A stretch of DNA of 64,000 nucleotides, from positions 86,040-150,039 of the forward strand of contig JAVZBY010000002.1 of assembly GCA_038874655.1 (NCBI GenBank), in the 5' to 3' direction. The translations under genes and the position numbers were made by a program. The notes under the pieces were generated by a model. That model searched no databases, had not been told where the DNA came from, and was given only the letters and a program-made list of their open reading frames with translations. How positions within the stretch are numbered: position 1 is the first letter of the stretch; each line of letters begins with the position of its first letter. The stretch is from Candidatus Woesearchaeota archaeon (GTDB lineage: Archaea > Nanobdellota > Nanobdellia > Woesearchaeales > GW2011-AR15). Below, in pieces: positions 1,765-60,686 of this stretch.

Positions 1765-4700
1765 ATGAATTCAGAAAAAAATTATCCGAAATTTGTATCA
1801 TTGTTTTTAATTATATTAATTATAGTAATAAGTATAGTAATAATCAATGCACAAAATCTTTTAGAAAACAATTATATAAAAATTAATAAAAAAGAATTCT
1901 TCTTAGGTGAAACAGTTGAAATAGAGCTTTTAATAAATGACCTAAATAATATTAACATTGATTTATATACACCAAACGCAATATATAAATATCCTTTTCC
2001 TTCAAAAATTATAAAATATAAACCAATATTAGAGGGTAATTATAGATTAGTGGTTTTAAAAAATAAAGAAATATTAACAACAACAACTTTTTTTGTTAAA
2101 AAAAATGAATATAATTTGATTGAAGAAATATTAAATCAGTCAACTATTAAAAATAACGAAGAAACTGAAAACCTCTTAGATATTAATAAACCTAATTTAA
2201 TTACAGATAAAGAAACATATCTTCTCAATCAAGAGGTTATAATTAGCATTAATAACCTATCCATAGATGATTTATCTAACTATAATTTAATTATAAATAG
2301 TTCTAATACTATTATTAATTATATAGATTTAAAATCAAACACAATAAAATTTTTTCCAAAAAAACAAGGTATTTATACATTAATATTAATAAGCAAAAAA
2401 TCAAATGAAGAGATAGCAAAAAAAGAAATTTCAGTTAATTCATTTAATCAACAGTTTAATAATGAAATCTCTTTAAACTATGATAATAAAACTAATTCTA
2501 TTAATAATAACATAGACAATCAAAAAGAAATTATGATAAATCAATCAATAGAATATTCAGATAATTTATTTAATAATTCAAAAAATATTGAACAGCTTAA
2601 CAGACAATATAATAATTTACCTTTTAAAATTAAGAATAGTAAAAATTATTTCTTAATAGCAAACATCACAATATCAAATAAAAGATTAAAAAACCTCTCA
2701 TTAGACACATTTTCATTTATTAACTTATCAGATGACCTTTATGATATAGAAATTCAACCAAATATTAGACAAATAAGAAAAATAAAATTACATAATGTAT
2801 CATTTAAAGGCAATTTTGATTTAGGTCTGGAAGAAATTGATTCTCAAGCAACAAAATTTAAAGATATTAAAAAAGCAATTGCTATTGATCCAAGCAAAAT
2901 TAATTTCACAAATGGTTTTATTGAAATAAATGCTACTTCAGATGTATTGTTAAAATGTAAAGATTGGAACTTTACAGAGCAGAAATGCTTTGGAAAATTT
3001 GAATTAATAAAAACATTAAATAAGGGACAAACCTATTTTATTGATATAAATAGCACAGATCCTGCATACTATGAGTTGGGGTTAGCATCTATAAATACAA
3101 ATAAATCCTTATACAAAGAAAATGAAACAGCACAAATATGGATTGTTGCACTAGATTATACAGGACATTTAATATCTAATGCAAATATAACTTTACAAAT
3201 AATTTCACCCAATAATGAGATTTTTATATTTTCTACAGATTCAAATATTTCCCAAATAGAATTAGGAATTTATGAATTAAATTTCACAACAAAAGAACAA
3301 GGTAATTACACTATATTTGCAAATGTTTATAGTAATTTAATTAATACAACTTTATTTAGTTTTTTCTCTGTAGTTGATTATTATGAATTTGAAATAATAA
3401 GAAAAAGTCCATTAACCACAGATCCTTGGCGTGATACTTTTACAACAAAATTAAAAATAATTTCAAACAACCATAATGGCTTATTTAATTTAACAGAAAA
3501 AATACCAATCGGCTTTGAGATTATTGAAACAGATGCTATTATAACAAATGATTCAAATTATTATTATCTAACTTGGAATAATTTACAAAACAATTCAGAA
3601 GTTAATTACACAGCATTAGCTCCTTTTATTACTCCTGCAGTATACGAATTTAAATCCTTTGTTTCTTATGAAATGAATAATCAATCTTTAATATTTAACG
3701 AAGCAAAACCATGGTTCTTAGCAGTAGATCCTATTATGTACACACAAGTTTGTCAAGCACAAATTAACTCAGTAGGTCAAAATACATTTGGAAGTGCATG
3801 TGATGGTGTTTATCCAAGCTCATGTAGCGCTACTGGAGATTTATTAACTTGTAATGATAATTTTTTTGAAACCCATACAGGCACCAACACAAACAGATGG
3901 GCAGGTGTTAGAATTTCAGCATATGATTCAACAATAAGAGATTGTGTTTCAATAACTAGAGTTGAATTATGTTATGAATGGTGGCGTGATATAGGATTTA
4001 GCAATGCAAGAATTGCAGTTGATAGAAATAATTGGGCTTCACCAACAACAGTAACAACAACATTACCTGGAACAACTGCAAACCCAGGAGTTACTTGTGC
4101 AGATGTTACTTCTTTAGAAGCATGGACATGTGATAATTTTGACGGAACAGGACAAGCAGCACAGGCAGTAGCACAAGCACAAAGAGATAATTCTGGCTCA
4201 ACAAGAACTCTTTACATTGATGTTTTGTTTTTTAATGTGACTTATTTAAGAGATTACCCTCCAAACATAACACAAAATAGACCACCTTCATATTATTATA
4301 ACGATACTTTCAGCCCAATAAATATTACATTTAATTGCTCTGCTGTTGATGATATCAGAGTTAGTAATATCTCATTATATATAACAAATCTAAATAATAA
4401 TTCATTTGCATTAAATCAAAGCTGTAATATCTTAGCAACATCTGGAAGTTGTCAATGGACTTTATTATTGCCAAGTGGAAATTACACATGGAATTGTTTA
4501 GCTTATGACAATAGAACACAAGGAACATGGGGCACAAATAGAACAATAATTATTAATTACACTATGCCACCAACACCAAAGATTAATTCTTATAGTTGTG
4601 AAATAAATACACTAAATAATTGGCAGCCATGTAATACAATAGCATATGGCAATACTATATTAAGGGTTAGAGCAAATTGTACAACAGACTCAGGATTAAT

Positions 4701-7700
4701 AACAAACACAACCTTCTTGTTATATAATCTTCCTGATAACATTTATTTATTAAATGGCACATCTACAACACAAACATCAGGATATTATATTTATGATAAT
4801 CCTGATTTACAAATAACTGACTCAGGATACTTTAATTTAAGTGTCCAATGTTTCAATTCATTTAATAAAAACCAAACAAATACTACAGCATGGAATTTAG
4901 CTTGGGGTACTTTAAGTTCTCAATTAATTTATCCATTTGAGCCTATATCTGTTCCTCAAAATTCAACTTTTAATTTTACTTCAAGATTAACTTGTTTAGG
5001 TGGTGAATGTGGTGATGTAAATGCAACATTGGATCCGATTTATATTGTTTTATTTAATCATACCTTTGAAACAGGATTAGAAGATTTTATTTGGTTAGAT
5101 GACATTTATGGCACAAATCAACCAACACAATCAGAGGGTTATGTTACAAACAGAATTTTTTGTCCTAATGGTTTTTGTTTATTTGGTGATTTGCATACTG
5201 TAAATAATAGCAATACAGGTCCTTGGAGTGGTGGCTTTAACAAAACATTTAATTTAACATCTTATACCTATGGATTAAAAGCAAACATTACAGTTAATAT
5301 AACTTTTGATTATAACTTAATAATAGATCAGACAACAGAAGCAGGAGAATATGTTTATCTTTATTATAGAAATATCACCTCAAAAACATCTGTACAAGGT
5401 CCTAACATACAAGGTTCAGGAGCAGGCGGAACTGATGAGGTATTTGAAAATGTCTCAGGTAGAATTTCTTTAATATTTTATAATGTCTCTGATGTTTTTT
5501 CATTTGATGTTGGTTGTTATATGACTGACACAAATGCCAATGACGAAGACGGTGGTTGTTTTATTGATAATATTTTAATTCAAGCAACTGTTGAATTAAA
5601 TAAAGGAAAAATTTCTAATATCCCCGGAACAAAACCCTTCTGGACATTGTCACCTAATCCTTATACAGAAGCGAATTTAGCATGTTTAAGAAATATGATA
5701 GCTGGCCAAAGTTGTAACACTACTTGGGTTGTTAATGCAACAGGTCCTTTATACACGACATGGGACTTTTTTGTTTTATATGAGCCTACAGAATATTCAA
5801 GTTATCTTTCATTTAATAAATCTAAATCAGTTAATATAACAATAACCGATATGGTTAGACCTGTTATTACTTTTGTACAATGTCAAAGAAATTCAACTTC
5901 TTGGGTTTCATGTGATTCTATAAAATACAATGAATACATCTCAGGTGTTAGAGGCACTTGCACATATACAGAAGGCATTATAACAAGTATGAGTTTTAAT
6001 TTAAAAAACCAATTTTACAATAGGACTTATTTTGATGTTTCAACCACAGACAATTCAACTAACTATTGGACATCAACCTTTAGTCCAATTAGAGTTAATA
6101 ACTCAGGTAATTTTGCTTTGTATTCAAGGTGTTATGCAAACTCTCTATTTGGTGATTATTCATTAAATTGGTCTTTACCTTATGGAACAATCTATATTTC
6201 ATGGATAAATTTATCTAGTGAAGTAAATGTAACGCAAAATAAATTTTCTAATTTTTCTGTTTTATTAACATGTCAAGGAGGAGAATGTATAAACATAAGT
6301 GCATTTATTGATCCAGAAATAGGCCAACAATTTGCATTAATGACCTTTGATGGTTCAACTAATTTTCCATTAAGGGATGGTCTATGTAACACAGCAACAG
6401 ATACATGCGCATTAAGTAATCCTTGGGATGATTTTGACAATTGTATTGCAGGAAATGGTCAATATGGAATATGTGCATCAAGATATGCTGGCTCTGGTGG
6501 AACAGAAAGAGGTTTATTATGCCAAGGATGTGATAGAAATAATGCAGGAAACACAGGCGGCTTATATATTTCATTAAACTCAACACCATGTGGTGGCTAT
6601 CCTTGTCAATATATTTTTATTTCATATTATCAAGCAGTACAAAGCATGGATGCAGCAAATGAAGGCAGTGTTGTTTTAGTTAGGGATAATGATGGTATTT
6701 GGCGAGAAGTTTCAAGATGTATTGATAATGACTTATGCGATTGTGATAGAATAGCAGGATGTACTTTAGCCACAATCGGACAATATGCACAATATGTAAA
6801 TGTAAATTTATGTGATATCCCAGGAATTGATTGTACTCAACCATTAGATATATTTTTCACTTCTTACGCAACTAATGTAAATCAAGGAACTGGAGATTAC
6901 TTTATGTGGGATCAAATTAATATAACAGGCTATTTACCAAAAGGGATTATATCTTATGGAAGTGGCTCTCCTTTTTATACTACCTATGCTAATCCTGTTT
7001 ATAGACAAAATAATTCATGTTTAGCTTATTTAGATGTAGGCCAATCTTGTATAATTACCTGGCCAGTAAATGCAACAGGAAACTTAAATTCTCTACACGA
7101 ATTTTATGTAAATGCCACAACCTTTAATAATCAAACAACTCAAAGTTCAATAATTGATGTAAGAATAACAGATAATAAACTGCCTTATGTTTCTTTTATA
7201 ACTTTGAATCCAATTAATCCAACTTCTTATGATAATTTAAATTGCTCATTTATAATAAATGATGCTAATTATTTTGATAAATTATATGCAAACATAACAT
7301 GGTATAGAAATGATATTGTTTATTCAAATCAAATGATATCCATTAATAATAATCAATTAACTTCAGTAATTTTATCAAGCTCCAATACAAATAACGGAGA
7401 AGTTTGGCATTGTGGTATAACACCTTATGACGAAACTGTTTATGGAAATCAATTAAATTCAACAAAAGTCAATATCCTAATTAGTCAGCCACCAATAATC
7501 TCTAATGTACAATGCCAAAGAAACTCAACTTCCTGGGTATCATGTTCAGATATTAAGTTTAATGATATTTTAACAATGGTTAGAGCACAATGCATAGATT
7601 TAGATGGTTATGTAATGAATGTTACTTTTAATTTAACAAATTTTGAAGACAAATATTTATTTTTTAAAAATACAACCTATATGCCAGAATCAGGATATTA

Positions 7701-23758: not shown

Positions 23759-23968
23759 ATGAAACCAACTGAATGGGTTAAATTAGTTTATAGTGAAACC
23801 CCTGATAAAGCAAATGTAAAACAGGGTTTTCTTTATGATGAGGGAGATTTCTATAGAATTGTTGGTTCTAATTCTGAAACACTTGTAAGAAAAGTCAATG
23901 TCATCTCTATTACTAAAAAAATTAATTTTGAAAAAAAGGTGAGAAACTATGAAAGAATTAGGCTATAA
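23759..23968 (+). CDS. Small beta-rich protein (possible Sm/SH3-like barrel)
   Basis: 69 aa with an AGGTG RBS and strand pattern VKLVY..G.L.DEGDFYRI..TLVRK.NVISI. Overlaps the next gene. Confidence 0.65.
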   Translation: MKPTEWVKLVYSETPDKANVKQGFLYDEGDFYRIVGSNSETLVRKVNVISITKKINFEKKVRNYERIRL

Positions 23969-31546: not shown

Positions 31547-31632
31547 AAAGCCACCTTTTTTCATAAATACTAAAAACACGAACCAATTTTAAATTTTTCT
31601 ATGCACATTGACTATCTAAAATTATTTTTTAT

Positions 31633-36237: not shown

Positions 36238-36335
36238 CCAACACCCCCAATTTATTAATAATAAAACTCCTTTATATTCTTTTTTATTTTTACAGGATTT
36301 CATTTTTGATTTTAAAACCACAATCAGTTTTCTAC

Positions 36336-38723: not shown

Positions 38724-38782
38724 TTTTTTAAATTTATCAATGTCTATTTTTAAATATTTTTCTTAGTTAATTATTCATTTTG

Positions 38783-39303: not shown

Positions 39304-39459
39304 ATGAAAAAAAAAGTAAACATTGCTTTGGATGAAGATTTGCACACAAAAGCAAAAGTAATTGCTGTTCTAAAAAATATTACTCTTAACGATTATATTG
39401 AAAAGGCATTAGATGAAGCTGTAAAAAAAGATAAATCTATACTAGATAAATTAAAATGA
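39304..39459 (+). CDS. Ribbon-helix-helix protein, 51 aa, not in the ORF track
   Basis: MKKKVNIALDEDLHTKAKVIAVLKNITLNDYIEKALDEAVKKDKSILDKLK. Stop overlaps the ATG of 39456 (ATGA). Confidence 0.85.
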   Translation: MKKKVNIALDEDLHTKAKVIAVLKNITLNDYIEKALDEAVKKDKSILDKLK

Positions 39460-52700: not shown

Positions 52701-55285
52701 TTAATTTAAGTTCTTTAAATACACCTATTGAAATGATTCATAATTTATCATTTGTTTTAGAATATTGTCATTCAGGAGTTCAAACAAATCCATTGTGTAA
52801 TCAAGGTTATCCTCATGAAGGAATTAGAAATGGAGATCAAATGATAGCAATTTATAACTTTTCAAATAATCAATGGTTTAATTTAACAAATCTAACTGTT
52901 AATAGTTTATCAGATGCAGAAAACACATTAATATTTTATTTAGATGATTTAACTTATAATTTAAGTAATTTTATTCAAAATAATATTTTACATTTACAAA
53001 TAGAAATGGACTTTAATCAAACAGGTGTTCAAGATGATTTATTAGTTATTGACTATTTAGCAATAAATATATCTTATTATTCTTATGTAAGTAGAGATTG
53101 TAAAGCATTAACAACAAAGTTTTTTGAAATAAACAATTTAAATAAAACAAATAAACTAATTCCAAAAACTAATTTTACTATTTATAATTCCTCTTTAAAT
53201 TTAATTGATACAGGTAATAATCCTTATTTTAGATATTTGCCAGAAGATAAGCTTTACTTTGAAGTATTTTCTCATTTTGTTAATGATAATATCTCATATT
53301 TCTTTTATAATTTAAGTTTTGATTCTTCTATAAATTTAACAGCACAAATTAATGAAAATTATAATTATAGTTTGCCTAATTTTAGCCAAACCTATAATGG
53401 AAACACTATAATCAATAATGTGTTAAATATTACCCCCTTAATTTCTGTAAAAGATGATTATATTAGTTTTGAAAAAGCACAATTAAAAATTCCAAAAAGA
53501 GGTTTAGATATTAATACAATATTGCATTGTAAAAACTATAATTATTTAACTTCTGAATGTTTAGAATTTGAGGTAAATGAAACAGATGAATTTGAATTTT
53601 ATGAAGACACTAATTTTATTTATTTTAATGTTTCCAGTTTTGATTCTTTTGGAGGAGGTGTAACAGCAAGTATTCCTAATATTACTAATATTTCAATTTA
53701 TAATGTAACAGGATTAAGTGATACCCATACTGGAGGAATATTAATAGCAAATTCATTAAATACAACCTTTAACTTAACACAAGGAGTTTATAGAATACAA
53801 TTTAGAATTTATAATGCAGGTAGAAGATGGGACATTGTTGGTAATGATGTTGTTTATCATTCTGGATTAAATAATACTTGGTTTATTAATACAACGAGAG
53901 ATATTTGGTATGTTGACAGTGTTTCAACAACTAATAGAACAGGTGGCAATTTCACAAATGGCAAAGTTGTTTGGAATACAAGCCAGCTAGGAAGGATAAA
54001 TGCTGGAGCAGTTGGATATTTCTACTATGTTGTAAATATAACAACAAATAAATCAGAAACTTATCAGGTATATTTTTTAATTAATGATACAAGCTCTAGA
54101 AGTGGTAGTTATGATTATTCTGCTTATAAAATAAAAGACACAATTCCACCTTATATAGTTTTAAACACACCTTTGAGAAATGATAACCTCTCTTATGGAA
54201 ATGTTTTATTTAATTTTTCTGTTTTTGATAATTCTGATTATAATTTAACTTGTAATTTATCCATAAACCAAAACAATGTTTTAAATAATATAAACAGCAG
54301 AAACAAAAACACAACTATTGTTTATTATACTCTTTTAAATTCTGGAGTTTATAATTGGTCTGTTTCATGCATTGATATTGATGGAAACTATAATGTAAGT
54401 GAAAAAAGAAACTTTACACTAATTAGTGGCCCAGAGTTTATTGACATAAATATTACAGAGACAAATACAAGTATAAGATTGAATTGGTCAAGTTCTTTGT
54501 TTGCGGATTCTTATTCAATCTTTATAACAACAAACTATTCAGCAGGGTTTTCATTAATCCCAAATGTCACAGGTATAACTAGTTTAGAATGGGTTGATAA
54601 TAATGCTTTTGCAAATGAAAAAAGATATTATAAAATAGCAGCTGTAAAAGGAAACGCATATGCATTAAGTAATAAAACAGCAGGAAAACAAACAATGCAA
54701 TTATATCCAAATTGGAATTTAATAAGTGTGCCTTTTAATTTAACAGAATGGCAAATCTTTAATGGAACACATGGAAGAAAAATATTTACAAATCCTTTAT
54801 GTATTGTTTCAATCTGGCGTTATAATTCCTCAAACCAAAGTTATGAAAAAACTGATAATTTCAATGGAATTTTTATTCCTTCAATTGGCTCAGAATCATT
54901 CACTCATTTAGAAAATGGAAAGGGCTATTGGTTTGAAGTAGACAAAAATTGTAATTTAACATTTTATGGAATTGTGCCAGATAATAACTCAACATATGAA
55001 TTAAATCCTCTTTGGAATATAATGGGGCATTACTCTGCAAAAGATCCTTTGCTTGAAGATGAGTCAATAATGAAAATAATAGATGTTCAACCTGAAGATA
55101 GTGTCCAAACAATTGTTAAATATAATCCATTAAAAAGTGATTTTGAAGTTAGTGTTCATTATCCTGGCTTTGGATGGTGGCCAAGCTTCAATAATCAAGA
55201 TTTCATTTACTTAAATCCAATGCTAGGTTATTATTTTGATGTTTTACAAAAATCAAATTGGACGCATGATCCAAATAAAGGATAA
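43763..55285 (+). CDS. Giant secreted surface glycoprotein (3840 aa): shared N-terminal scaffold, beta-propeller-like region, two blocks of five MG2-like repeats, DUF2341-like domain plus Cys-rich domain, Ig/FN3, C-terminal WNL tandem domain
   Basis: Signal helix, repeated T(D/N/E)K..Y...E.V.I.G, WWNSSWQKRIPI, C-terminal PNWNLISVP/GYWF. Confidence 0.9.
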   Translation: MLYLKKNNLLNLLVIFLLILLFISVFFINSQPKIISYEYIEKSENTPLDYFEITLNYEDLSNTKVDIISTEKTYSFLNPEKKIKFFPKEYGKHEINFYKEDVLLDSSYFIYANENSIYTDKTNYSIGEQVTISIISTKETKNFILELIDNNNKKYNLFSPSSIVKFIPNSAGNYKINLIKDNNKIAQTEFYVESKEIEPINYEGHSNYEIVKTQLKIKPLSNLTENLGKLNNSLEITGKNKKLEYELEIINSSDLINENNLIQNNKKTKLKLKNSHIKEIEFSTNFQGNLKIDEPNIKKIKIENQNFNVPEIPVLASYAIDPRDLEFENATIKASAKGNQLWKCKDWDFNNSLCLGRWEKILDLIPGEDYTFVLDKQDPGFIETGIASINTNKPIYLPNETVKLDIVIVNKYGYLADADINIKITNPLNQSFDFSETQITKIQKGIYELNFSNTNEIGLYEIEIIALGNNVNSTLFSYFFVNNSYDFDIIRKAKQVIDPKNEYFISEINIDIKNLELISKNYNFTEVLPESFEIIKTEPNAEIIIENNTKKLIWRNLYENSKILYIAQPPIKSPELYQINSYIEYEQDLKYNLFKESRPWFLAIDPRAVSAIFVYKDTVDSGIVKYRIWNSSTNSLMPEQNGPNVGSPPTWQTIKCMKEAPLCLLVAVQADTTIDFAYYNESNNQWSSVTNLGTVDDDYKSVDIACEDLSGNCLIAYETSTAANNQFAYRIFNATSQTLGAQNLVTITAATANAFRYINLYPKYNSNQIAIVLQNLQTGGGEYEAAIWNGSESGGFIDWQELYADSGDITKKTYSCSWEGTSNDLICFYVRDTITGLYAWNYNSLTRTWTDLGEVWPRTDIGQEPANIFSCGETPETGDLNHDSVMVMFVDRGADRLGSIWNGTNFLLTIRPTQDGNTEVSRDDTMACSWTHDGNTNVMAWVDADSLIPEWGTYSYLTNSFSFAQWDVGSTVGMPTWADDVESLRISLNPENDEMLLTGHALTLGTIPSNVNCTRWTGSTFDITGCENVETTGNLDITSGREFTTYIDVDWFRYNAPPLVSALIYPLNNSNITTSNVNFTFIVSDDIALRNCSIYLNNSGWQSAGVLFLVKNGQPSNLTLSLADDKYTWNVLCYDSSTPSKIDWYDYNYTFTLDASPPNITNLNIEPEKQLVNLFVNISVNVSDYLGIKFVIAEITYPNLTIKNFTMTENGNIFNLTFTETTQLGLYNLTIHSEDLFGNKNSSIKSNFNISLEDLYLETDKNTYIADETVYILGKGFYPNNKITLYLYDPTGDPILGFPYNVSSNLTGGINSTWIIPNNPVLGYYKLNATDTFDKTRSINISFRIVSAIAETDKTNYEQGDFVLITGYNWDPYANITINITDPNNQQVFGQINLTANSTGNINTTWQIPYNATLGNYNLRAFQTNDLSKKSSYIFSVSKRNTNLSTDFDWYYLGDTIYVLGYGFSPESNITVYVYDNTGSPISHFPKNYTSNNTGAINFSFVFPIELYEDTFYINATDLKYPNLYTNTSFMIVSPYVQTDKDYYSDGETVYIYGYYFPRNKNITINITDVDSNLISGYPKNVSSDNNGFFTDTTTAYSGTLAQTPYDVLAFYPQNPNLQSLYTYYVLSITSLSTDKKYYTWWEIVNITGKSYSETSYVDVFIKDLYNSGSVLNYPQRELTNSLGRFNHYFNVSNYCPTDLNIIGTDVAYPDLLNASTNITIRGWWNSSWQKRIPIYITNLLNENRTNERIFVNITGLGGYIKNCINESRIISTETWQEIPLNVIGGDNSTFCEIVFLANITANKINDTKYYYYYNNSNAKNPNYPILEGYYYQILYDGFDGTTDFKISAGDCLIDGTHECIDSYPWDGFDLCRESDAATAYGVCASPYMGVKGGRGLWARGGLDQNTAGDGLFYYLNSTPCNNDFCHNIFLSYYEAAFSLDLATEGSRVYVNDSTTTLTISSCQNAQPCESTVLATTYLVAQYVRTDLCRNYTGFNCNNNLTLRFTSYNPGTDLANNDYIGWDEINLTGYRRYAPKIETTIGEKQNYVECEHIDITPPNITINYPQIFSNTSKLEPFFNFTIIDDYSKLLNYSIYVNGIFNGQKGQALNNSNITLNITGLSEGRHYIIIEAIDKFSNAYNSTKWNITIDITPPNTTITTPVNFTNISSNSFLIEADAIDNLVGVDSVLFFYRNNSQQEWQFLCSDNTIPYRCTWDISLLQDNNTYQLKAYANDTVGNNGLNYTVGNITIDRNGPITLITEPWNYTKLNGSSYLIKVNVTDLLSRVDSIFILYRKNSTENWINLCVDKTYPYECLFNYENLEEGNLYEIRAYSNDSVGNYGLNDTIYNLSINMQGPNITNYNASPLNQKLGLPVQIFANITDKTAVSYAYANIVMPNGTNINLSMADDDLNSIYNTTFYQTYLIGTYNVSIYSNDTFNNINNTETFTFNITYDSLNLYTNKNKYVAGEYVLIYGSGFNAFSNITIYIYNSTNDTLAGFPYDVISNSTGGINLIWVIPIDLELEYYYINATDKQDINRSITTSFEIVSAIIETDKLDYQQGNPVFIFGNYFDENEVVYVNITNPLNELVFEINLTANSTGNINTTWYSDFNETIGNYILSAQQISNPLKKDTYEFTISQRSVYVFTDYPFYKENEIVNVLGYGFSFNPTEYIGTNVSIYIYDQDGISILGYPINLTTNASGNFNYFFIINNLNEGNYTINVTDLNYPNLNNFTKFEVALSTLYTDKTNYINGEIVNIYGSYWTKNTKITIDIKNESGISITGYPKNITSSNLGNISDSLIAQAIGYGITTYKIIAFNPLFNKENATINFTVQRKAILETEKSVYDLNELINISGFFFSQNSPVEILIRYLNNSGFAYYYPKTIISNVNGDITHQFNNTYLCTGSYIIEATDKTFTSLYANTTFNISFINKNSTIKPSYNATASGLYSVFANYGNSYQSDNTYEYFGGIDLNTNFNAFLNYSFNLSSLNTPIEMIHNLSFVLEYCHSGVQTNPLCNQGYPHEGIRNGDQMIAIYNFSNNQWFNLTNLTVNSLSDAENTLIFYLDDLTYNLSNFIQNNILHLQIEMDFNQTGVQDDLLVIDYLAINISYYSYVSRDCKALTTKFFEINNLNKTNKLIPKTNFTIYNSSLNLIDTGNNPYFRYLPEDKLYFEVFSHFVNDNISYFFYNLSFDSSINLTAQINENYNYSLPNFSQTYNGNTIINNVLNITPLISVKDDYISFEKAQLKIPKRGLDINTILHCKNYNYLTSECLEFEVNETDEFEFYEDTNFIYFNVSSFDSFGGGVTASIPNITNISIYNVTGLSDTHTGGILIANSLNTTFNLTQGVYRIQFRIYNAGRRWDIVGNDVVYHSGLNNTWFINTTRDIWYVDSVSTTNRTGGNFTNGKVVWNTSQLGRINAGAVGYFYYVVNITTNKSETYQVYFLINDTSSRSGSYDYSAYKIKDTIPPYIVLNTPLRNDNLSYGNVLFNFSVFDNSDYNLTCNLSINQNNVLNNINSRNKNTTIVYYTLLNSGVYNWSVSCIDIDGNYNVSEKRNFTLISGPEFIDINITETNTSIRLNWSSSLFADSYSIFITTNYSAGFSLIPNVTGITSLEWVDNNAFANEKRYYKIAAVKGNAYALSNKTAGKQTMQLYPNWNLISVPFNLTEWQIFNGTHGRKIFTNPLCIVSIWRYNSSNQSYEKTDNFNGIFIPSIGSESFTHLENGKGYWFEVDKNCNLTFYGIVPDNNSTYELNPLWNIMGHYSAKDPLLEDESIMKIIDVQPEDSVQTIVKYNPLKSDFEVSVHYPGFGWWPSFNNQDFIYLNPMLGYYFDVLQKSNWTHDPNKG

Positions 55286-55328
55286 ATAGTTTTAAATGAA
55301 TAAAATTGAAAAAAATTAAATATATAAA

Positions 55329-57545
55329 ATGAAAAAGAATATATTTAATATAAAAATATCGCAGTATATATTTTTAGTAATTTTAAATCTCTTTTTAGTT
55401 AAGTTTTCATTTTCACAGCCAATGCCATTAGGTATAGATGGTTATGTTTATGGTTTAGATGGTGAATTAGCTGATTCAAGTGTTAAATTTTCAGTATTAA
55501 ATCAAAACAATGGCTATTATATAGAATCTAATTTAAGAGAGGGTTATTATTCTGTTGCAGTAAATGGTAATAAAGGTGATAAAATAATAGTAAGTGCTTG
55601 GACATTATTCAATAATAGTGTTCTAAACAATGTTTCAGAAGAAGTAATTTTAAATGGAGTTATCCATAATTTTAATTTGGTTTTAAATTTATCAAAACCA
55701 CAATTGCCTAACAAAAAACCAGTCATTATCTCACAACCAATCACAAAAGCATATGAAGATTCATATTATTATTATCAAATTTATGCTGTTGATGAGAATA
55801 ATGATACTCTTATTTATTCAATAGAATCAGATAATTTAAGTATTACTATAAATCAATCAGGTTTTGTTTCATTTTTGCCAGAACAAAAAGACGTTGGCTT
55901 TCATGATATTAAAATAATTGTAAGTGATGGCACTTTATTTGAAACACAGGAATATGAATTAGAAGTGATTAATGTAAATGATCTGCCTATAATTACATCA
56001 ATACCCAACACAAGTGCAATGACAAATAAACCTTATTCATATCAAATTGAGGTTTATGATGAAGATTCTAATTCATTTATTTATGATTTAATTGAAAATC
56101 CAACAGGAATGACAATTTCTAATACTGGTTTGATTTCTTGGCTTCCCACAAATTCAGGCATTTATAATATTACTATAAATGTTTCAGATTGGATTAATTC
56201 AACAATACAAAGTTTTACAATTTATGTATTAGAAGAGCCAAATAATCCACCTATAATTATTAGCTATCCAAACACAACAATAAAACAAAATGATTTATTT
56301 GTTTATGAAATAAATGCTTATGATTATGATAATGATAATTTATCTTATTATTTAATAGATGCTCCTAATAACATGACTTTAAATAATAATATTTTATTTT
56401 GGCAAACAAATTATAATGATGTGGGTTCCCATAATGTTTTATTAAAAGTCCAAGATTCAAAAGGTTCTTATGCTTTACAAAATTTTACTTTAAAAGTTAT
56501 AAATGTTAACGATATCCCAATCATAATTTCTGAACCAATAACACAAACAAATGTTTTTAATTATTATGTTTATGATGTTGAGGCCATTGATTATGATAAT
56601 GACACAATAACTTATGCTTTAATTGAAAAACCAAAGTTTATGTACATAAATAAAGACACAGGTAAAATAATTTGGGTTCCTTTTAAAGAAGGTTTCTACA
56701 AGGTAATTGTAGCAGCATATGATAAATTTTCTTTAACAACACAGGAATTTTATATTAATGTATCTAAGCAAACAAAAAAAAGTAATTTTTACATTAATTA
56801 TCTAAAACAATATAATGAATTTAGCTATTTAGATATTGAAAATTCTAATTTGTATTTAAAAAGAATTTCAATAAATAAAAATTCAGGCAATCCTTTATTA
56901 ATATCAGGATACAATAAAAATAATGTTTATTTTATTAACATAAATGATTTAAAAGGTCAAATAAATTATGTAAATGGTTCATTATTCTTTGTAGTGCCCA
57001 AAAATTTGGCATATGAAAATTTATCATTATATCAAAATGGAAAAAAATTAAAAACAAAGTTATTGAAATCAGATAAAAATTATAATTATTATGTTTCAGA
57101 ATTTAACAAATTAGGTGTTTTTTATTTCTATACTAAATATCATCAAATTAATACACCTAAGAAAAATATTATTATTACAGGAAAAATAAATTTCTTAAAT
57201 TCACCTATAACACAAGGAATTGAATATGAGATTACTAATTTGAAAACCAATCTCACAAAAAAAGGCATTACAAGTGATAAATTTAATGCTTATGCTGAAT
57301 TGATTGATGCTGAGTATAATGATGAAGTAAAAATAACTTTAAAAAAAGACAAAACTAAATTAGAAGAAAAAACAATAAAAATAACAGGTGATGTTGTCAG
57401 AGAAGATATTAATTTAACAATAACAAAAGAAGATTATATCAAATTATTAACTCAACAAAAAATAAAAAAATTGTTATTAAATTTGTTCATAGTATTATTT
57501 TTTATTTTATTTTTGAGTTTTGTTTTTAAAAAAATAAAAAGATAA
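55329..57545 (+). CDS. Membrane-anchored protein with four cadherin-like/putative Ig repeats
   Basis: Four N..P.I.S.P...Y.Y.I.A.D.D.D...Y.L units, an N-terminal PMP-start beta domain and a C-terminal TM helix. Confidence 0.85.
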   Translation: MKKNIFNIKISQYIFLVILNLFLVKFSFSQPMPLGIDGYVYGLDGELADSSVKFSVLNQNNGYYIESNLREGYYSVAVNGNKGDKIIVSAWTLFNNSVLNNVSEEVILNGVIHNFNLVLNLSKPQLPNKKPVIISQPITKAYEDSYYYYQIYAVDENNDTLIYSIESDNLSITINQSGFVSFLPEQKDVGFHDIKIIVSDGTLFETQEYELEVINVNDLPIITSIPNTSAMTNKPYSYQIEVYDEDSNSFIYDLIENPTGMTISNTGLISWLPTNSGIYNITINVSDWINSTIQSFTIYVLEEPNNPPIIISYPNTTIKQNDLFVYEINAYDYDNDNLSYYLIDAPNNMTLNNNILFWQTNYNDVGSHNVLLKVQDSKGSYALQNFTLKVINVNDIPIIISEPITQTNVFNYYVYDVEAIDYDNDTITYALIEKPKFMYINKDTGKIIWVPFKEGFYKVIVAAYDKFSLTTQEFYINVSKQTKKSNFYINYLKQYNEFSYLDIENSNLYLKRISINKNSGNPLLISGYNKNNVYFININDLKGQINYVNGSLFFVVPKNLAYENLSLYQNGKKLKTKLLKSDKNYNYYVSEFNKLGVFYFYTKYHQINTPKKNIIITGKINFLNSPITQGIEYEITNLKTNLTKKGITSDKFNAYAELIDAEYNDEVKITLKKDKTKLEEKTIKITGDVVREDINLTITKEDYIKLLTQQKIKKLLLNLFIVLFFILFLSFVFKKIKR

Positions 57546-58201: not shown

Positions 58202-58914
58202 CATTAGATGAATTAAAAATAATAGCAAACCAAAAAGGCTATAATCTGTTAATGATTGAGAAGGATTATTTAATAACATATTTGTTATATCTAATAAAAG
58301 ATATTGAACATATTTTTTTTAAAGGAGGCACAGCTTTAAATAAAATTTTTTTAAATTATGAGAGATTATCTGAAGACTTAGATTTTACAATAACAAAAAA
58401 TCCTTCTGAAATTGAAGAATCTATTAAAAATAAGATTAAAAAAACAATTTTTAGAGATATTTCATATGGAAAAAAAACAAAATCTTTTACAAGATTAATT
58501 CTAAATTATAAATTATTTCATGAAAAAGGTTCTATTTATATTGATTTGAATAAAAATGCAAAATTAGAACTTAAGCCTGTTAGATATAAAATAAAGCATT
58601 TTTACAAGGATATTCCAGAGTTTAGTGTTAATTGTTTAGATTTAAAAGAGATGATTGCAGAAAAAGTAATTGCAACAGCAGAAAGATATAAACCAAGAGA
58701 TTTTCTTGATTTATATTGGATAATTAAAAATAATTTCATAATCTCAAAAAAATTAATCCTAAAAAAAAGAAAAAAGTTTTCAAAAGATTTAATCTTTAAA
58801 AACACGAATAAAGTTTATAGTAAATGGGATACAGATTTAAAATATTTAATAAAAACAGATATATCTTTTCAAGAAGTAATTATGACATTAAAAGAATATT
58901 TTAATTATAGATGA
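58192..58914 (+). CDS. Type IV toxin-antitoxin toxin, AbiEii-like nucleotidyltransferase
   Basis: IEKDY, FKGGTAL, RLSEDLDF, AEKV and RDFLDL signature motifs. Confidence 0.92.
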   Translation: MVITLDELKIIANQKGYNLLMIEKDYLITYLLYLIKDIEHIFFKGGTALNKIFLNYERLSEDLDFTITKNPSEIEESIKNKIKKTIFRDISYGKKTKSFTRLILNYKLFHEKGSIYIDLNKNAKLELKPVRYKIKHFYKDIPEFSVNCLDLKEMIAEKVIATAERYKPRDFLDLYWIIKNNFIISKKLILKKRKKFSKDLIFKNTNKVYSKWDTDLKYLIKTDISFQEVIMTLKEYFNYR

Positions 58915-60686
58915 TTCTATTATATGAAAATAATAAAATGAAAAAGAAAAATTTTCAAAGATGTAATCAATTTTTTTTATTTTTACTTATCACACTTTTT
59001 TTAATTATGCTAAAATCTCTCCATGCCCCACCAGAACCAAGAACAGTTAGAGGCACAATTTACACAATAACCTTACAGCAAGCACAATTAGGAACAGATG
59101 TTTTTATTAATGACACAAATTCAAGTGTTTATGTTTATACTAAGACATATGGACCACCTTTTATGCCAGGAATTTATTCTGCTGTTTTGAACTCAAGTCC
59201 AAATGATACTATTTATGTTAAAGCATGGAACGCAACTAGATGGGGATTTAGATATGGATTAATGAATTTAACAGGAGTTGTAATAGATGTTGTTTTGAAT
59301 TTAACAAGAAACAGCGAAGCAAAAGTAATTATCATTAATCCAAAAAATCATACAGAAGTGCCATCTGCAATATTCAATCTAACAGCAAATATTACAATGC
59401 TAGGAAACAATGGTTTCAATTGTTTTGCTACAATCTCCTTTAATACAAGTGTTTTTTCTTTATATAGCGATACTTATACACATTATTTAGGCAATATTAA
59501 CTGGAACACATCAATACAAACAATTTGGTATTTAACAGGAATTAATGACGGCTCTTCAAATTTTACAGTTAATGCCTCATGTGATTCGGATGGTTTGAAA
59601 TTTGATAATTTAGATAGATTTACAGTTTACAATATTTCAAGAGCAGATAACAGAAGTCCTGAAATAAATATTATCTATCCACAAAATAATACAAGACAAA
59701 ACACATTTTTAACAATCTTCTATAATGTGAGTGATGCTTCCATAATAAAAAACTGCTCTCTATATATAAACAATATTTTAAGAAACACAACCAATAATCC
59801 AGAAAGATTTGTGTTAAATAATTTTTCAATTATATTAAATGAAAGTTCTCTATTTTATATTACTTGTACAGATAATAGCCCAAATTTTAACACAGGAACA
59901 TCTGGGATTTTTAATATATCTTTAAATAATGTACCTTTTATTTCTAATTTAATCCTAGAAAATCCCATTAATTTAATACCAGCAACAACAAAAAAGATTT
60001 ATTGTAATGGAACTATAACTGATTTAGATGGTTTTTTAGATATTGTAAAAGTAAATGCATCTTTTTTTCAGCAAGGAAAGCAAAGTCAACTAATTAATTT
60101 AAGTAATAATTATTTTAATTCATCTTGTTCTTTATTTAATGGAATAGGTAATAATATAGGTTTTTCTTGCTCTTTTGATTTAATTTATTATGCTAATAAT
60201 GGAACTTGGTTTTGTAATGTTTCTGTTATTGATTTAATTAATGCAACAAATACAAGTCAAGAACAATCAATAATAAATTCTTTACTTGCTATTGAGGTTT
60301 CACCATCTCTAATTAATTATGGTGATTTACAGATTTTGCAAATAAGTCCTTTTGATCAAATAATTAATATAACTAACTATGGTAATGTACCAATAAACAT
60401 AAGCATTTATTCTTATGCAGAAACAGAAGAAGACAATTTATCTTTAAAATGTGAGACAAGCAATATATCTTATGAATATCATAGATTTTCTAAAACAAAA
60501 GATTCTTTATTTTCAAATATGGCCTTTTTAAACAACTACTTAAATCCTGTAATAACAAATTTAACAATCCCAAAAAAAGAATACAACCAAATAGAAAATT
60601 CCACAAAATCCTTATTTTTTAAATTGCAGATTCCCTTAACAGCTAAAGGAAAATGTAATGGAAGATTAGTTCTGAGTGCTAGTTGA
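58911..60686 (+). CDS. Secreted multidomain protein ending in a family-B domain (true start may be the ATG at 58938)
   Basis: N-terminal half is colinear with the middle of the 917-aa protein. C-terminal half has PINL...YCNGTI.D.D...YYANNGTWFCNV...GKCNGRLVLSAS. Confidence 0.85.
   Translation: MILLYENNKMKKKNFQRCNQFFLFLLITLFLIMLKSLHAPPEPRTVRGTIYTITLQQAQLGTDVFINDTNSSVYVYTKTYGPPFMPGIYSAVLNSSPNDTIYVKAWNATRWGFRYGLMNLTGVVIDVVLNLTRNSEAKVIIINPKNHTEVPSAIFNLTANITMLGNNGFNCFATISFNTSVFSLYSDTYTHYLGNINWNTSIQTIWYLTGINDGSSNFTVNASCDSDGLKFDNLDRFTVYNISRADNRSPEINIIYPQNNTRQNTFLTIFYNVSDASIIKNCSLYINNILRNTTNNPERFVLNNFSIILNESSLFYITCTDNSPNFNTGTSGIFNISLNNVPFISNLILENPINLIPATTKKIYCNGTITDLDGFLDIVKVNASFFQQGKQSQLINLSNNYFNSSCSLFNGIGNNIGFSCSFDLIYYANNGTWFCNVSVIDLINATNTSQEQSIINSLLAIEVSPSLINYGDLQILQISPFDQIINITNYGNVPINISIYSYAETEEDNLSLKCETSNISYEYHRFSKTKDSLFSNMAFLNNYLNPVITNLTIPKKEYNQIENSTKSLFFKLQIPLTAKGKCNGRLVLSAS

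What the first reader, a model, noticed from the sequence alone, without database searches (positions are those of the whole stretch)
1765..60686. Candidate undescribed modular archaeal filament/surface system: free subunits plus large proteins carrying the same subunit domain at the C-terminus
Seen: three stand-alone secreted family-A proteins (23949, 24851, 36336) and two family-B proteins (25669, 42685), none with a C-terminal anchor. The A domain is the last domain of the 4796- and 917-aa proteins. The B domain is the last domain of the 591-aa protein. A and B genes are adjacent in one operon, and an S26 peptidase lies in the A3 gene run. Established: chaperone-usher tip adhesins are adhesin domains fused to a C-terminal pilin domain, and TasA-type fibres are encoded with SipW peptidases. 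Inference: A and B polymerise into fibres or a lattice and display giant adhesins, possibly for host attachment by a DPANN symbiont. I recognise no type IV pilin, usher or archaeosortase here.
Basis: partly seen in the sequence, partly recalled or inferred. Interest (0 to 1): 0.9.

Follow-up and report, generated by a model that had tools for sequence, protein, structure and literature searches.

The report
Modular surface-assembly proteins of Woesearchaeota
A tiny, probably symbiotic archaeon encodes small secreted proteins whose fold matches no solved structure and also forms the tail end of its giant sticky surface proteins, which points to an undescribed way of mounting adhesins on the cell surface.

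Summary
The window lies in a 1.26-Mb Woesearchaeota (DPANN) genome. It encodes secreted ~255-aa "A" and ~305-aa "B" proteins, and the same modules end the 4796-, 917- and 591-aa surface proteins. Just past the window lie two more free A genes and a 602-aa protein ending in A. The 3840-aa giant ends in a third module that resembles the ectodomain of the membrane-anchored 258-aa protein.

A is a large family (1329 cluster representatives) with no Pfam, PDB or ESM-Atlas relative. It splits into three groups:
- **Type 1:** free or fused.
- **Type 2:** always free.
- **A':** always on giants, and lacking the N-terminal arm.

The gene order type1->type2(->B) and the cassette giant-p357-A-A-B recur across 74 related loci. 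The modules always sit at the extreme C-terminus. A occurs in 86 of 301 genomes of the phylum, nearly all in one order.

Most likely these are self-assembly modules. A1 and A2 would co-assemble (complex prediction gives only weak support) into a glycosylated fibre or stalk that takes up giant adhesins through their tail modules. Polymerisation, strand exchange and anchoring are not shown. Five literature searches found no description. The scan noted this family before in other genomes.

The parts
1765..16155 (+). 4796-aa secreted giant built of Ig-like, CARDB and Big_13 repeats. It has 238 N-X-S/T sequons.
   Evidence: CARDB 4496-4604, E 1e-22
15598..16152 (+). A' module: the last ~185 residues of the giant. 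It lacks the ~45-residue N-terminal arm of free A, because the CARDB domain abuts the core motif at residue 4615.
16177..18039 (+). 620-aa Cys-rich membrane protein. It shares a Cys-rich segment with the 635-aa protein and recurs between giant and 917-like genes in relatives.
18036..20789 (+). 917-aa secreted protein. Residues 440-737 resemble residues 42-338 of the 591-aa protein. The A' module is residues 739-916 (nt 20250-20786).
22356..23429 (+). 357-aa protein with no signal peptide and a C-terminal DUF5752 domain, which it shares with the cytoplasmic tail of the 1061-aa protein. It is the conserved gene between the giant and A1.
   Evidence: p357-A1-A2 in 26 of 74 loci
23949..24746 (+). 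A1: free A module of type 1 (WQGYYG motif), secreted.
24851..25624 (+). A2: free A module of type 2 (WKAYVG motif), secreted. The AF2 model has pLDDT 89.5 and no structural neighbour.
25669..26592 (+). B1: free B module made of two tandem Ig-like sandwiches, with 15 sequons.
26604..28511 (-). 635-aa Cys-rich multi-pass membrane protein, a conserved partner of the 258-aa gene.
   Evidence: p258-p635 in 22 of 74 loci
28538..29314 (-). 258-aa protein with a long basic N-terminus, one hydrophobic segment with no obvious cleavage site, and an ectodomain. This is the free 'C' module and a candidate membrane anchor.
29747..31579 (-). 610-aa surface protein with a C-terminal membrane segment and a cytoplasmic zinc ribbon. 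It recurs in the clusters.
33306..33806 (-). Extra, divergent S26 signal peptidase paralogue carrying the GPSMQPT and HR motifs.
33832..36321 (-). 829-aa surface glycoprotein with a PGF-pre-PGF domain and a C-terminal membrane anchor, lying between A3 and S26.
36336..37097 (-). A3: free A module of type 2, in the cassette HTH-A(type 2).
   Evidence: HTH-A2 in 45 of 74 loci
37094..37648 (-). 184-aa HTH regulator (sigma-70 region-4-like) overlapping the start of A3. Its paralogue lies at 61003-61554+.
39456..42641 (+). 1061-aa single-pass surface protein with a cytoplasmic DUF5752-like tail, located upstream of B2.
42685..43593 (+). B2: free B module.
43763..55285 (+). 3840-aa secreted giant (MG2, Big_7, Big_13). 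Its last ~200 residues (nt ~54662-55267) resemble the ectodomain of the 258-aa protein (module C).
   Evidence: hhalign probability 91%, E 1.1e-6, 180 columns; the pairwise BLASTP is not significant
55329..57545 (+). 738-aa Ig-repeat protein with a C-terminal membrane anchor. It is the conserved gene between 3840-like giants and X-B genes.
58911..60686 (+). 591-aa secreted protein ending in a B module (residues 339-591, nt 59925-60683).
61003..61554 (+). 183-aa HTH paralogue that opens the next operon. That operon runs past the window's end to a 602-aa protein ending in a type 1 A module, an ArsR-type regulator, and free A5 (type 1) and A4 (type 2).

Best explanation
A, B and probably a third module C are extracellular self-assembly (docking) modules specific to one order of Woesearchaeota.

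**Proposed mechanism**
1. Free A and B proteins are exported by Sec. Their signal peptides are cut by a type I signal peptidase, possibly the extra S26 paralogue. They are then N-glycosylated.
2. Type 1 and type 2 A subunits, made from adjacent genes, bind each other heterotypically. Most likely they alternate to build a thin fibre or stalk, without ATPase, chaperone or usher.
3. B, a tandem Ig-like protein, joins as an adaptor.
4. Large Ig-repeat adhesins are taken up because their last domain is itself such a module. A type 1 module with its N-terminal arm can sit inside the assembly. The arm-less A' tail of the giants can only occupy an end, like a tip adhesin.
5. The membrane-tethered 258-aa protein, whose ectodomain resembles the tail of the 3840-aa giant, suggests the same like-with-like principle also provides anchoring.

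**Shown versus inferred**
- Shown by computation: the families, their subtypes, the strict C-terminal position, the gene order, the distribution and the monomer folds.
- Inferred: binding, polymerisation, tip position, glycosylation, anchoring and the role in host contact.

**My odds**
- About 0.65 that these are assembly or docking modules that tie the giants to the small proteins.
- About 0.4 that the product is an alternating A1/A2 fibre.
- The confidence given for this explanation as a whole lies between the two.
For: 1. **Same module free and fused, always last.**
   - 28 of 28 fused A modules end 0-6 residues from the C-terminus (25 in 22 of 74 loci, 3 in this genome).
   - 15 of 15 long proteins among the best 150 representatives end within 1 residue of the module's end.
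   - 7 of 7 clear X-B proteins end within 2 residues.
2. **Three old subfamilies with different roles.** A FastTree of 268 modules (10 fragmentary rows dropped) gives three groups:
   - a split holding all 142 type 2 and nothing else (support 0.93);
   - a clade of 96 type 1 plus the 602-aa fusion (0.93);
   - a clade of 27 fused A' tails plus 2 short rows that may be cut giants (1.0).
   - 0 of 28 fused modules are type 2, against 142 of 240 free ones.
3. **Fixed heterotypic gene pair.**
   - type1->type2: 80 occurrences in 64 of 74 loci.
   - A1-A2-B: 44 occurrences in 39 loci.
   - fused-A gene->p357: 22 loci.
   - p357->A1->A2: 26 loci.
   - HTH->type 2: 45 loci.
   - ArsR->A1->A2: 35 loci.
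4. **Arm present or absent.** The xPxGA-to-W arm (41-48 residues) is present in free A and in type 1 fusions. In the 602-aa protein it runs from GPQGA at 392 to W at 435. It is absent from A' tails: in the 4796-aa protein the CARDB match ends at 4604 and the core motif starts at 4615.
5. **Complex prediction, A1(28-265)+A2(40-257): weak support.**
   - Score 0.44; best of 3 controls 0.01.
   - The mark was reached by 58 of 80 solved complexes and 2 of 110 mismatched pairs. At 0.60 or under it was reached by only 7 of those 80 solved complexes and by both mismatches that passed.
   - My own alignments were used, so these counts hold only roughly.
   - The runs agree in at least 95% of contacts, and the partner's pLDDT is at least 80.
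6. **Not an enzyme.** The polar residues invariant in type 2 (H164, E201) and the Cys pair are lost in A' tails.
7. **Sequon density.** N-X-S/T sequons run at 2.6-6.3 per 100 aa in A, B and the fusions, against 1.0 in all ORFs of 200 aa or more.
8. **Extra S26 paralogue in the A3 operon.** It scores 27 bits, below the 51.85 cut-off of TIGR02228, while a 79-bit copy lies on contig C5.
9. **Third case of the same logic.** The 3840-aa tail resembles the p258 ectodomain (hhalign probability 91%, E 1.1e-6, 180 columns).
10. **Precedent.** Chaperone-free archaeal fibres with paralogous subunits, a two-domain tip protein, a small regulator and a dedicated peptidase are in print: tafi (PMC11821415, abstract and section 17 read) and ABP (PMC9245690, passages read).
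Against: - AlphaFold2 gives complete, confident monomer folds (A2 pLDDT 89.5, B1 93.2). The N-terminal segments are not modelled as inserted strands, and both Ig-like domains of B have a full set of strands. Nothing therefore points positively to donor-strand exchange.
- The one complex job gave only weak support and no interface. By the tool's own calibration, such a pass is more often wrong than right unless the pairing was already likely.
- Free A and B have no anchor, and no base or anchor for a fibre has been identified.
- B resembles generic tandem Ig/FN3 domains only (best VIA Z 10.0, rmsd 10.4 A, 195 aligned, a macroglobulin).
- The p258/3840 relation is not significant in pairwise BLASTP (E 0.011 over 47 residues; E 0.56 for the collinear 203-residue alignment). 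It is also not recovered by jackhmmer started from p258.
- S26 linkage is rare: HTH-A2-S26 occurs in 5 of 74 loci.
- No expression, proteomic or imaging data exist for any member.
- Counts across loci and genomes come from related organisms and are not independent.
- Gene maps rest on my own ORF calls (first start codon), with labels by phmmer/hmmsearch.
Confidence: 0.45

Rival explanations
1. Finite docking complex rather than a polymer. A2, perhaps with B, is a soluble adaptor that forms a closed 1:1 or 1:1:1 complex with a type 1 module. It works like cohesin-dockerin: it caps or cross-links the ends of giant adhesins, or ties them to a membrane protein.
For: - Heterotypic pair with fixed gene order.
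- Type 2 is never fused.
- Complete monomer folds with no open groove.
- The complex prediction, which tested only a 1:1 pair, gave weak support: score 0.44, best of 3 controls 0.01. The mark was reached by 58 of 80 solved complexes and 2 of 110 mismatched pairs. At 0.60 or under it was reached by only 7 of those 80 and by both mismatches. My own alignments were used, so the counts hold only roughly. The runs agree in at least 95% of contacts, and the partner's pLDDT is at least 80.
- The anchored free form of module C (p258) fits simple docking.
Against: - Free type 1 subunits with no passenger are as common as the pairs themselves (98 free non-type-2 modules). They would only compete with the giants for A2.
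- Several A1-A2 cassettes occur per genome, each under its own regulator.
- The difference between armed type 1 fusions and arm-less A' tails has no obvious meaning in a closed complex.
Confidence: 0.2
2. Two-dimensional coat. A and B are subunits of an S-layer-like glycoprotein lattice of this order, and the giants are inserted into the lattice through the same modules.
For: - The proteins are secreted, sequon-rich and have no anchor.
- B is built of Ig-like sandwiches, as several archaeal S-layer proteins are (recalled, not tested).
- The number of paralogues per genome is high: 1-14 matches.
Against: - The distribution is patchy. A was found in 86 of 301 genomes of the phylum, all at least 90% complete, and was not found in 2 of 7 other genomes of the window's own family. 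The count of 86 includes one unpublished genome, G242.
- There are several separately regulated cassettes.
- An 829-aa PGF-pre-PGF protein with a membrane anchor is a more conventional envelope-protein candidate in the same window.
Confidence: 0.12
3. Ligand-binding head. A is a lectin-like or host-binding domain at the distal end of the adhesins, and the free copies are secreted soluble binders.
For: - It is the terminal domain of adhesin-like proteins.
- It has a conserved disulfide pair and invariant polar residues in type 2.
- The weak fold-search rows include lectins and capsid jelly rolls, none significant.
Against: - The residues that are invariant in free type 2 (Cys pair, H164, E201) are lost precisely in the tails of the giants.
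- The strict type1->type2 gene pairing and the never-fused type 2 are not explained.
- No fold match to any lectin reached Z 4. This does not exclude one.
Confidence: 0.1
4. Export or sorting domain. The C-terminal module is recognised by a secretion or attachment machine and perhaps removed, as with the C-terminal domains of type IX secretion cargo.
For: - The position is strictly terminal, with a conserved aromatic last strand YYFY-E-.
- Conserved membrane proteins of unknown role lie nearby: p635, p610, p1061.
Against: - Free-standing copies have their own Sec signal peptides and carry no cargo.
- The module is about 215 residues long.
- Three non-homologous modules (A, B, C) follow the same free/fused logic.
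- Archaea of this kind are not known to have an outer membrane (general knowledge).
Confidence: 0.05

Closest known systems
Chaperone-usher pili of Gram-negative bacteria (FimH/FimG/FimF/FimA, PapG) - description from general knowledge
   Same: - Several paralogous small subunits, plus an adhesin whose C-terminal domain is a subunit-like domain.
- The tip adhesin's subunit domain lacks the N-terminal extension that the other subunits carry. Here, A' tails lack the arm of free A.
   Different: - No PapD-like chaperone or usher family was hit in the window, and there is no outer membrane.
- A is not an Ig-like pilin fold by any search.
- The subunits come as a fixed heterotypic pair.
- Strand exchange is not shown.
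TasA-TapA-SipW fibres of Bacillus subtilis and archaeal bundling pili AbpA/AbpB of Pyrobaculum calidifontis (PMC9245690, passages read; PMC9674648, search listing and abstract start only)
   Same: - Sec-exported subunits cut by signal peptidase I, with chaperone-free assembly outside the cell.
- A second, larger protein with a subunit-like part is proposed to nucleate assembly or act as an adhesin.
- In Bacillus a dedicated extra signal peptidase lies in the operon. Here an extra S26 paralogue lies in the A3 operon.
   Different: - No sequence match of A or B to any Pfam family, TasA-type families included.
- No fold match to solved TasA or AbpA structures came up. That result is inconclusive.
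- The system has two alternating A subtypes plus B.
- The giants reach 4796 residues.
Tat-fimbriae (tafi) of Haloarcula hispanica and the DUF1102 clusters of Thermococcales/Archaeoglobus (PMC11821415, abstract and section 17 read)
   Same: - A gene cluster with 2-3 paralogous ~150-200-aa secreted subunits, a two-domain tip protein, an adaptor, a small transcriptional regulator and a dedicated signal peptidase.
- The linear assembly is predicted, not solved.
   Different: - The peptidase there (TafD) has two domains and four membrane helices. The one here has 166 aa and a single hydrophobic segment.
- The subunits there are DUF1102/TasA-like. A and B match no Pfam family.
- No giant adhesins are described there.
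Pam pili of Candidate Phyla Radiation bacteria (PMC13278184, abstract read) and archaeal threads of Sulfolobus acidocaldarius (PMC9715654, search listing and abstract start only)
   Same: - Lineage-specific fibres of previously unannotated proteins, found in ultrasmall episymbionts (Pam).
- Ig-like subunits, and assembly without type IV machinery.
   Different: - Those are solved filaments with shown donor-strand exchange. Here nothing is solved.
- A has a different, unmatched fold.
Cohesin-dockerin pairs of cellulosomes (general knowledge)
   Same: Small extracellular modules, found both on scaffold proteins and at the ends of large passengers, that assemble by non-covalent pairing.
   Different: - No sequence or fold likeness was found.
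- Here the fused and free modules are homologous to each other (like with like), whereas cohesin and dockerin are two different partner folds.

Membership tests
TasA / AbpA / DUF1102 superfamily of donor-strand fibres | Sequence membership (Pfam Peptidase_M73/TasA-type or DUF1102 models) | tested here: not met
   Pfam scan of A1, A2, A3, B1 and B2 at E up to 0.1 gave no such family. NCBIfam gave none. Profile searches against PDB sequences gave no hit for A and only a chance-level gp120 row for B.
TasA / AbpA / DUF1102 superfamily of donor-strand fibres | Jelly-roll subunit fold like solved TasA/AbpA | tested here: inconclusive
   Foldseek against the PDB gave no match at E <= 0.001. VIA-align against 48,161 chains gave a best Z of 3.2 (rmsd 3.9 A, 78 aligned). 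A family that is not listed is not thereby excluded.
TasA / AbpA / DUF1102 superfamily of donor-strand fibres | N-terminal strand of one subunit inserted into the next | tested here: inconclusive
   The monomer models show no inserted N-terminal strand. For the A1+A2 complex no interface was given. Support was weak: score 0.44, best of 3 controls 0.01. The mark was reached by 58 of 80 solved complexes and 2 of 110 mismatched pairs, but at 0.60 or under by only 7 of those 80 and by both mismatches that passed. My own alignments were used. The runs agree in at least 95% of contacts and the partner's pLDDT is at least 80.
TasA / AbpA / DUF1102 superfamily of donor-strand fibres | Dedicated signal peptidase encoded with the subunits (Bacillus, tafi) | tested here: inconclusive
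   An extra divergent S26 paralogue lies in the A3 operon. The arrangement HTH-A2-S26 is seen in only 5 of 74 loci.
Chaperone-usher pili | PapD-like chaperone and outer-membrane usher in the cluster | tested here: not met
   No such Pfam family was hit in 27 of the 29 window ORFs of 100 aa or more that were scanned.
Chaperone-usher pili | Ig-like pilin fold lacking its last strand | tested here: inconclusive
   The B model has two sandwiches with 7 and 9 strands. A is not recognisably Ig-like. These are models only.
Chaperone-usher pili | Two-domain adhesin whose C-terminal subunit domain lacks the N-terminal extension | tested here: met
   A' tails lack the arm that free A carries. This is an analogy of architecture, not homology.
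Type IV pili / archaeal type IV filaments | Class III signal peptide, prepilin peptidase, assembly ATPase and platform protein | tested here: not met
   A and B have a long hydrophobic segment followed by a -3/-1 small-residue site typical of signal peptidase I. No ATPase, platform or prepilin peptidase family was hit in the window.
Archaeal S-layer proteins | Main envelope protein present throughout a lineage and forming a lattice | tested here: inconclusive
   A was found in 86 of 301 genomes of the phylum and in 5 of 7 other genomes of the window's own family (the count of 86 includes the unpublished genome G242). Lattice formation is not testable with these tools.
Tafi (TafA-G) | TafD-type two-domain peptidase with four membrane helices; DUF5305 partner (as described in PMC11821415, section 17) | tested here: not met
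   The S26 protein here has 166 aa and one hydrophobic segment. No DUF5305 or DUF1102 hit was found.

The most novel reading that the evidence does not exclude
Woesearchaeales have their own machine-free surface-assembly system, built on a protein fold with no known relative. Alternating type 1 and type 2 A subunits would form a glycosylated fibre by a new kind of arm exchange. Three unrelated like-with-like modules (A, B, C) would serve as universal plugs that mount, tip and anchor interchangeable giant adhesins. On this reading the system is the host-contact organelle of these DPANN archaea, and the archaeal counterpart of the lineage-specific Pam pili of CPR bacteria.
Probability: 0.3. Interest if true: 0.85.

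Novelty: new variant of a known kind. Interest (0 to 1): 0.7.

Why it matters
How DPANN archaea hold on to their hosts is largely unknown, and for Woesearchaeota there is neither a culture nor a structure.

This family is large: 1329 cluster representatives at 50% identity. It is confined to one order, and it is always coupled to the largest adhesin-like genes of these small genomes.

If the modules assemble as proposed, three things follow:
- They explain how anchor-less proteins of 3000-5000 residues are held at the surface.
- They give a sequence marker for finding the adhesins of uncultured relatives.
- They add a non-homologous, possibly new-fold case to the growing list of chaperone-free archaeal fibres.

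The small A1, A2 and B proteins are easy to express, so the central claim can be tested directly at the bench.

Tried and rejected
- **RNA evidence:** no RNA holder is listed for the A1-A2-B1 stretch.
- **Fold searches for A:**
  - PDB by Foldseek: no match at E <= 0.001.
  - 48,161 PDB representatives by VIA-align: best Z 3.2.
  - BFVD viral models: none at E <= 0.001.
  - ESM Atlas: only A's own family at TM 0.88-0.92, with the next row at TM 0.25 or less.
- **Fold searches for B:** only generic tandem Ig/FN3 likenesses.
- **PDB sequence-profile searches:** nothing for A, and one chance-level row for B.
- **Word-indexed search for longer B fusions:** one protein only. Six-frame genome searches found many more.
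- **A versus B profiles:** only an 18-column likeness in the N-terminal segments (probability 66%). I treat them as unrelated families.
- **Module C:**
  - Pairwise BLASTP of p258 against the 3840-aa tail is not significant.
  - jackhmmer from p258 did not reach the tails.
  - Only the search from the tail and the profile-profile comparison support the link.
  - The Atlas shows the p258 ectodomain fold as a widespread unnamed domain of secreted proteins (TM 0.73-0.76). Module C is therefore less special than A.
- **Enzyme reading of A:** considered because of invariant D/T/H/E in type 2. Dropped because H, E and the Cys pair are not kept in type 1 or A'.
- **tRNA genes:** none in the window.
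- **Two 'X-B' calls (L066, L013):** with module starts near residue 140, these are probably over-long ORF calls of free B. They were not counted as fusions.
- **P0198 (325 aa):** the one long representative with a type 2 motif. It has a signal-like hydrophobic stretch directly before the module and is probably an over-long gene call.
- **Supplements:** the supplementary files of the papers were not seen. The tafi paper's Table S3 and Figure S21 may bear on the comparison.

Full report
**The organism and the observation**

The window has about 24% G+C. It is positions 86040-150039 of contig C2 of a 1.26-Mb genome in 17 contigs, 97% complete. Its proteins' nearest relatives are all from Woesearchaeota/Nanoarchaeota metagenome bins.

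All-against-all BLASTP gave the following:
- A1, A2 and A3 are paralogues (E 1e-25 to 3e-57).
- B1 and B2 are 55% identical.
- The B module forms residues 339-591 of the 591-aa protein (E 2e-41).
- The tails of the 4796-aa and 917-aa proteins are 43% identical.
- The 4796-aa tail matches A3 at E 3e-8.

The distant tail/A relation is confirmed by hhalign (probability 95.8%, E 7.6e-9, 154 columns). It is also confirmed by a jackhmmer search started from the tail, which converges on the whole family.

A and B carry one N-terminal hydrophobic stretch followed by a small-residue -3/-1 site. They have no C-terminal anchor.

**The system is larger than the finding**

The A profile finds seven places in the genome, and jackhmmer adds the two A' tails. 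Together these are:
- Six free genes: A1-A3 in the window, A5 and A4 4-5 kb past its end, and A6 100 kb further on.
- A 602-aa protein that ends in a full type 1 A module.
- The two giant tails.

B occurs three times.

The 3840-aa giant has neither A nor B. Its last ~200 residues align with the ectodomain of the 258-aa protein at 28538-29314 (hhalign probability 91%, E 1.1e-6, 180 columns, shared GWNLIS and GYW motifs). This rests on profile methods only. Pairwise BLASTP is not significant, and the reverse jackhmmer fails.

That 258-aa protein has a long basic N-terminus, a hydrophobic segment and no evident cleavage site, so it may stay in the membrane. If the link is real, every large anchor-less protein of the region ends in a module that is also encoded as a small protein nearby.

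**What A and B are**

Neither matches any Pfam or NCBIfam model or any PDB sequence profile.

*Module A*
- The A profile finds 1329 cluster representatives at E <= 0.001 among 1.84 billion (979 at 1e-10).
- AlphaFold2 models A2 confidently (pLDDT 89.5, pTM 0.80). The model has a signal helix, a ~45-residue arm without regular structure but with pLDDT 80-90, and a mixed beta/alpha core.
- This model has no neighbour in four searches:
  - PDB by Foldseek.
  - VIA-align over 48,161 chains: best Z 3.2.
  - BFVD.
  - ESM Atlas beyond its own family: TM 0.25 or less.
- A missing match does not prove a new fold, but none was found by any route.

*Module B*
- B1 (pLDDT 93.2) is two Ig-like sandwiches.
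- It has only generic neighbours: transglutaminase barrels, macroglobulin, FimH, CfaE, FN3 pairs.

**Three subfamilies of A with different behaviour**

Motifs and a FastTree of 268 modules agree. Ten fragmentary rows were dropped beforehand.
- **Type 2 (WKAY-G):** 142 sequences form one side of a split with nothing else (support 0.93).
- **Type 1 (W-Q/A/T-G-Y/F-Y-G):** a clade of 96 free modules plus the 602-aa fusion (support 0.93).
- **A':** a clade of 27 fused tails plus two short rows that may be cut giants (support 1.0).

None of 28 fused modules is type 2.

Among the best 150 representatives, 15 are long (325-2359 aa). In all 15 the module ends at the last or next-to-last residue, and 14 of them are not type 2. 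The exception is probably an over-long gene call.

In the loci and this genome, 28 of 28 fused A modules end 0-6 residues from the C-terminus. For B, 7 of 7 clear fusions end within 2 residues. Six-frame searches show B tails in open frames of up to 4152 residues.

**The N-terminal arm**
- Free A proteins begin, right after the predicted cleavage site, with a nearly invariant xPxGA motif. An arm of 41-48 residues follows, up to the core W.
- Type 1 fusions keep this arm behind an Ig-like domain: GPQGA at residue 392 and W at 435 of the 602-aa protein.
- A' tails do not keep it. In the 4796-aa protein the CARDB match ends at 4604 and the core motif starts at 4615. The 917-aa protein is similar.
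- A' tails have also lost the Cys pair and the H and E that are invariant in type 2. This argues against a catalytic or ligand site and for a structural module.
- In free B the conserved N-terminal segment (VNTTVNIT-NSAP) aligns with what looks like the last strand of the preceding Ig-like domain in B fusions. I could not decide what that means.

**Conserved gene order**

I fetched 74 loci around A homologues from species-representative genomes. I called ORFs myself and labelled them with the A and B profiles and with the window's proteins. Counts are over genes that are consecutive among labelled genes on one strand.

| Arrangement | Occurrences | Loci (of 74) |
|---|---|---|
| type1->type2 | 80 | 64 |
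| A1-A2-B | 44 | 39 |
| fused-A gene->p357 | 22 | 22 |
| p357->A1->A2 | 26 | 26 |
| HTH->type 2 | 45 | 45 |
| ArsR-type regulator->A1->A2 | 35 | 35 |
| X-B->ArsR->A1->A2 | 5 | 5 |
| p258->p635 | 22 | 22 |
| HTH->A2->S26 | 5 | 5 |

- Many loci are short contigs, so these are lower bounds. The genomes are related, so the counts are not independent.
- The seed pattern favoured type 2.
- The window shows all three cassettes: giant-(620)-(917)-...-p357-A1-A2-B1; HTH-A3-p829-S26; and, running past the window's end, HTH-838-602(X-A)-ArsR-A5-A4.

**Distribution**
- In an even sample of 301 genomes of the phylum (all at least 90% complete), A was found in 86. Of these, 85 are in the window's own order and one is a weak match in another order of the class. 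A was found in 5 of 7 other genomes of the family.
- One of the 86, G242, is an unpublished genome, and the count rests on it to that extent.
- B at E <= 1e-5 was found in 65 genomes. At E <= 1e-40 it was found in 39, and 35 of those also have A (my hand count).
- The system is therefore an accessory of one order, multi-copy where present (1-14 A matches). It is not a universal envelope component.

**The peptidase**
- The S26 gene in the A3 operon has the Ser box (GPSMQPT) and an HR box. It scores only 27 bits against the archaeal signal-peptidase model (cut-off 51.85).
- A 79-bit copy lies on contig C5, and another copy with in-frame stops lies on C3.
- The window's copy is therefore an extra paralogue, as SipW is in Bacillus (PMC9245690, passages). 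Its linkage to A is limited to close relatives.

**Test of binding**

My one complex job paired mature A1 (type 1) with mature A2 (type 2), each with its subfamily alignment. The verdict was weak support:
- Score 0.44; best of 3 controls 0.01.
- The mark was reached by 58 of 80 solved complexes and 2 of 110 mismatched pairs. At 0.60 or under it was reached by only 7 of those 80 and by both mismatches that passed.
- The counts hold only roughly because my own alignments were used.
- The runs agree in at least 95% of contacts, and the partner's pLDDT is at least 80.
- No interface was given.

I take this as a small push toward heterotypic pairing, which the gene order had already made likely, and not as proof.

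**Interpretation**

The pattern is best explained by assembly modules:
- one module in three old subtypes;
- one subtype never fused;
- a fixed type1->type2 gene pair;
- strictly terminal fusion;
- arm-less tails on the giants;
- a second and perhaps third unrelated module following the same logic.

Free type 1 subunits without any passenger are common. An open-ended A1/A2 co-polymer, with giants at an end, therefore explains more than a closed docking complex does. However, nothing here shows polymerisation or strand exchange, and the monomer models look complete.

Rivals are a finite docking complex, an S-layer-like coat, a ligand-binding head and a sorting domain.

The closest systems in print are chaperone-usher pili, TasA/ABP, tafi (PMC11821415) and, as an ecological parallel, the Pam pili of CPR bacteria (PMC13278184, abstract). 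None is homologous by the tests I could run.

**Novelty**

Five full-text searches found no paper describing this family or arrangement. Subscription journals are not covered.

Earlier notes of this scan describe the same A family in other genomes and at this place. I re-derived the shared points independently.

- the type 1 / type 2 / A' split and its fusion asymmetry;
- the arm difference;
- the B fusions and A-B co-occurrence;
- the three regulated cassettes;
- the extra-paralogue status of S26;
- the order-level patchy distribution;
- the candidate third module.

Noticed in passing
window 57683-58914 (+): An AbiEi-like antitoxin gene (172 aa, E 7e-5) and an AbiEii nucleotidyltransferase toxin gene (240 aa, E 3e-26) overlap each other. 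They sit between the 738-aa gene and the 591-aa X-B gene, inside an otherwise conserved surface-protein operon. Related loci have p738 directly followed by X-B.
   Followed up: partly
window 37650-39460, both strands: The 1.8-kb 'gap' between the HTH-A3 operon and the 1061-aa gene is packed with small ORFs. These are two paralogous ~85-aa winged-helix-like proteins, two ~51-aa ribbon-helix-helix-like proteins (one overlapping the start of the 1061-aa gene) and a 99-aa protein. The names are my reading of the sequences and were not scanned.
   Followed up: no
L002 8519-9073 (-) = G000:C2:254518-255072: The gene overlapping the start of the isolated free A6 gene is a 184-aa phage-integrase-family protein (Pfam E 3e-10), not the usual HTH regulator. 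It could be a recombinase switch or a mobile remnant.
   Followed up: no
window 22356-23429 and 39456-42641: The signal-less 357-aa protein and the cytoplasmic tail of the 1061-aa membrane protein share a C-terminal DUF5752-like domain (BLASTP E 3e-8; Pfam E 4e-6). This is a conserved cytoplasmic component of unknown role, sitting between the giant and A1 in 26 of 74 loci.
   Followed up: partly
window 16177-18039 and 26604-28511: The 620-aa and 635-aa membrane proteins share a Cys-rich extracellular segment (37-43% identity, E 1e-23).
   Followed up: no
L001 about 3070-3090 (just past the window's end): A run of withheld bases (read as N/X) interrupts the end of the 838-aa ORF that starts at window 61551. 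An overlapping ORF in another frame continues to L001:3343, so the true C-terminus of this protein is unclear.
   Followed up: no
G000:C3:92552-92902 (-): A second archaeal-type signal peptidase match (54 bits) contains three in-frame stop codons (1 TAG, 2 TAA). It may be a pseudogene or an assembly error.
   Followed up: no
loci L005, L006, L009, L013-L017 and others: Many public records that carry this Woesearchaeota-type cassette are titled 'uncultured Methanosarcinales archaeon'. The label looks wrong for these bins.
   Followed up: no
window 32409-33257 (-): A cation-diffusion-facilitator transporter (Pfam E 2e-49) follows the S26 gene on the same strand, here and in L005. I have no evident link to the surface system.
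   Followed up: no
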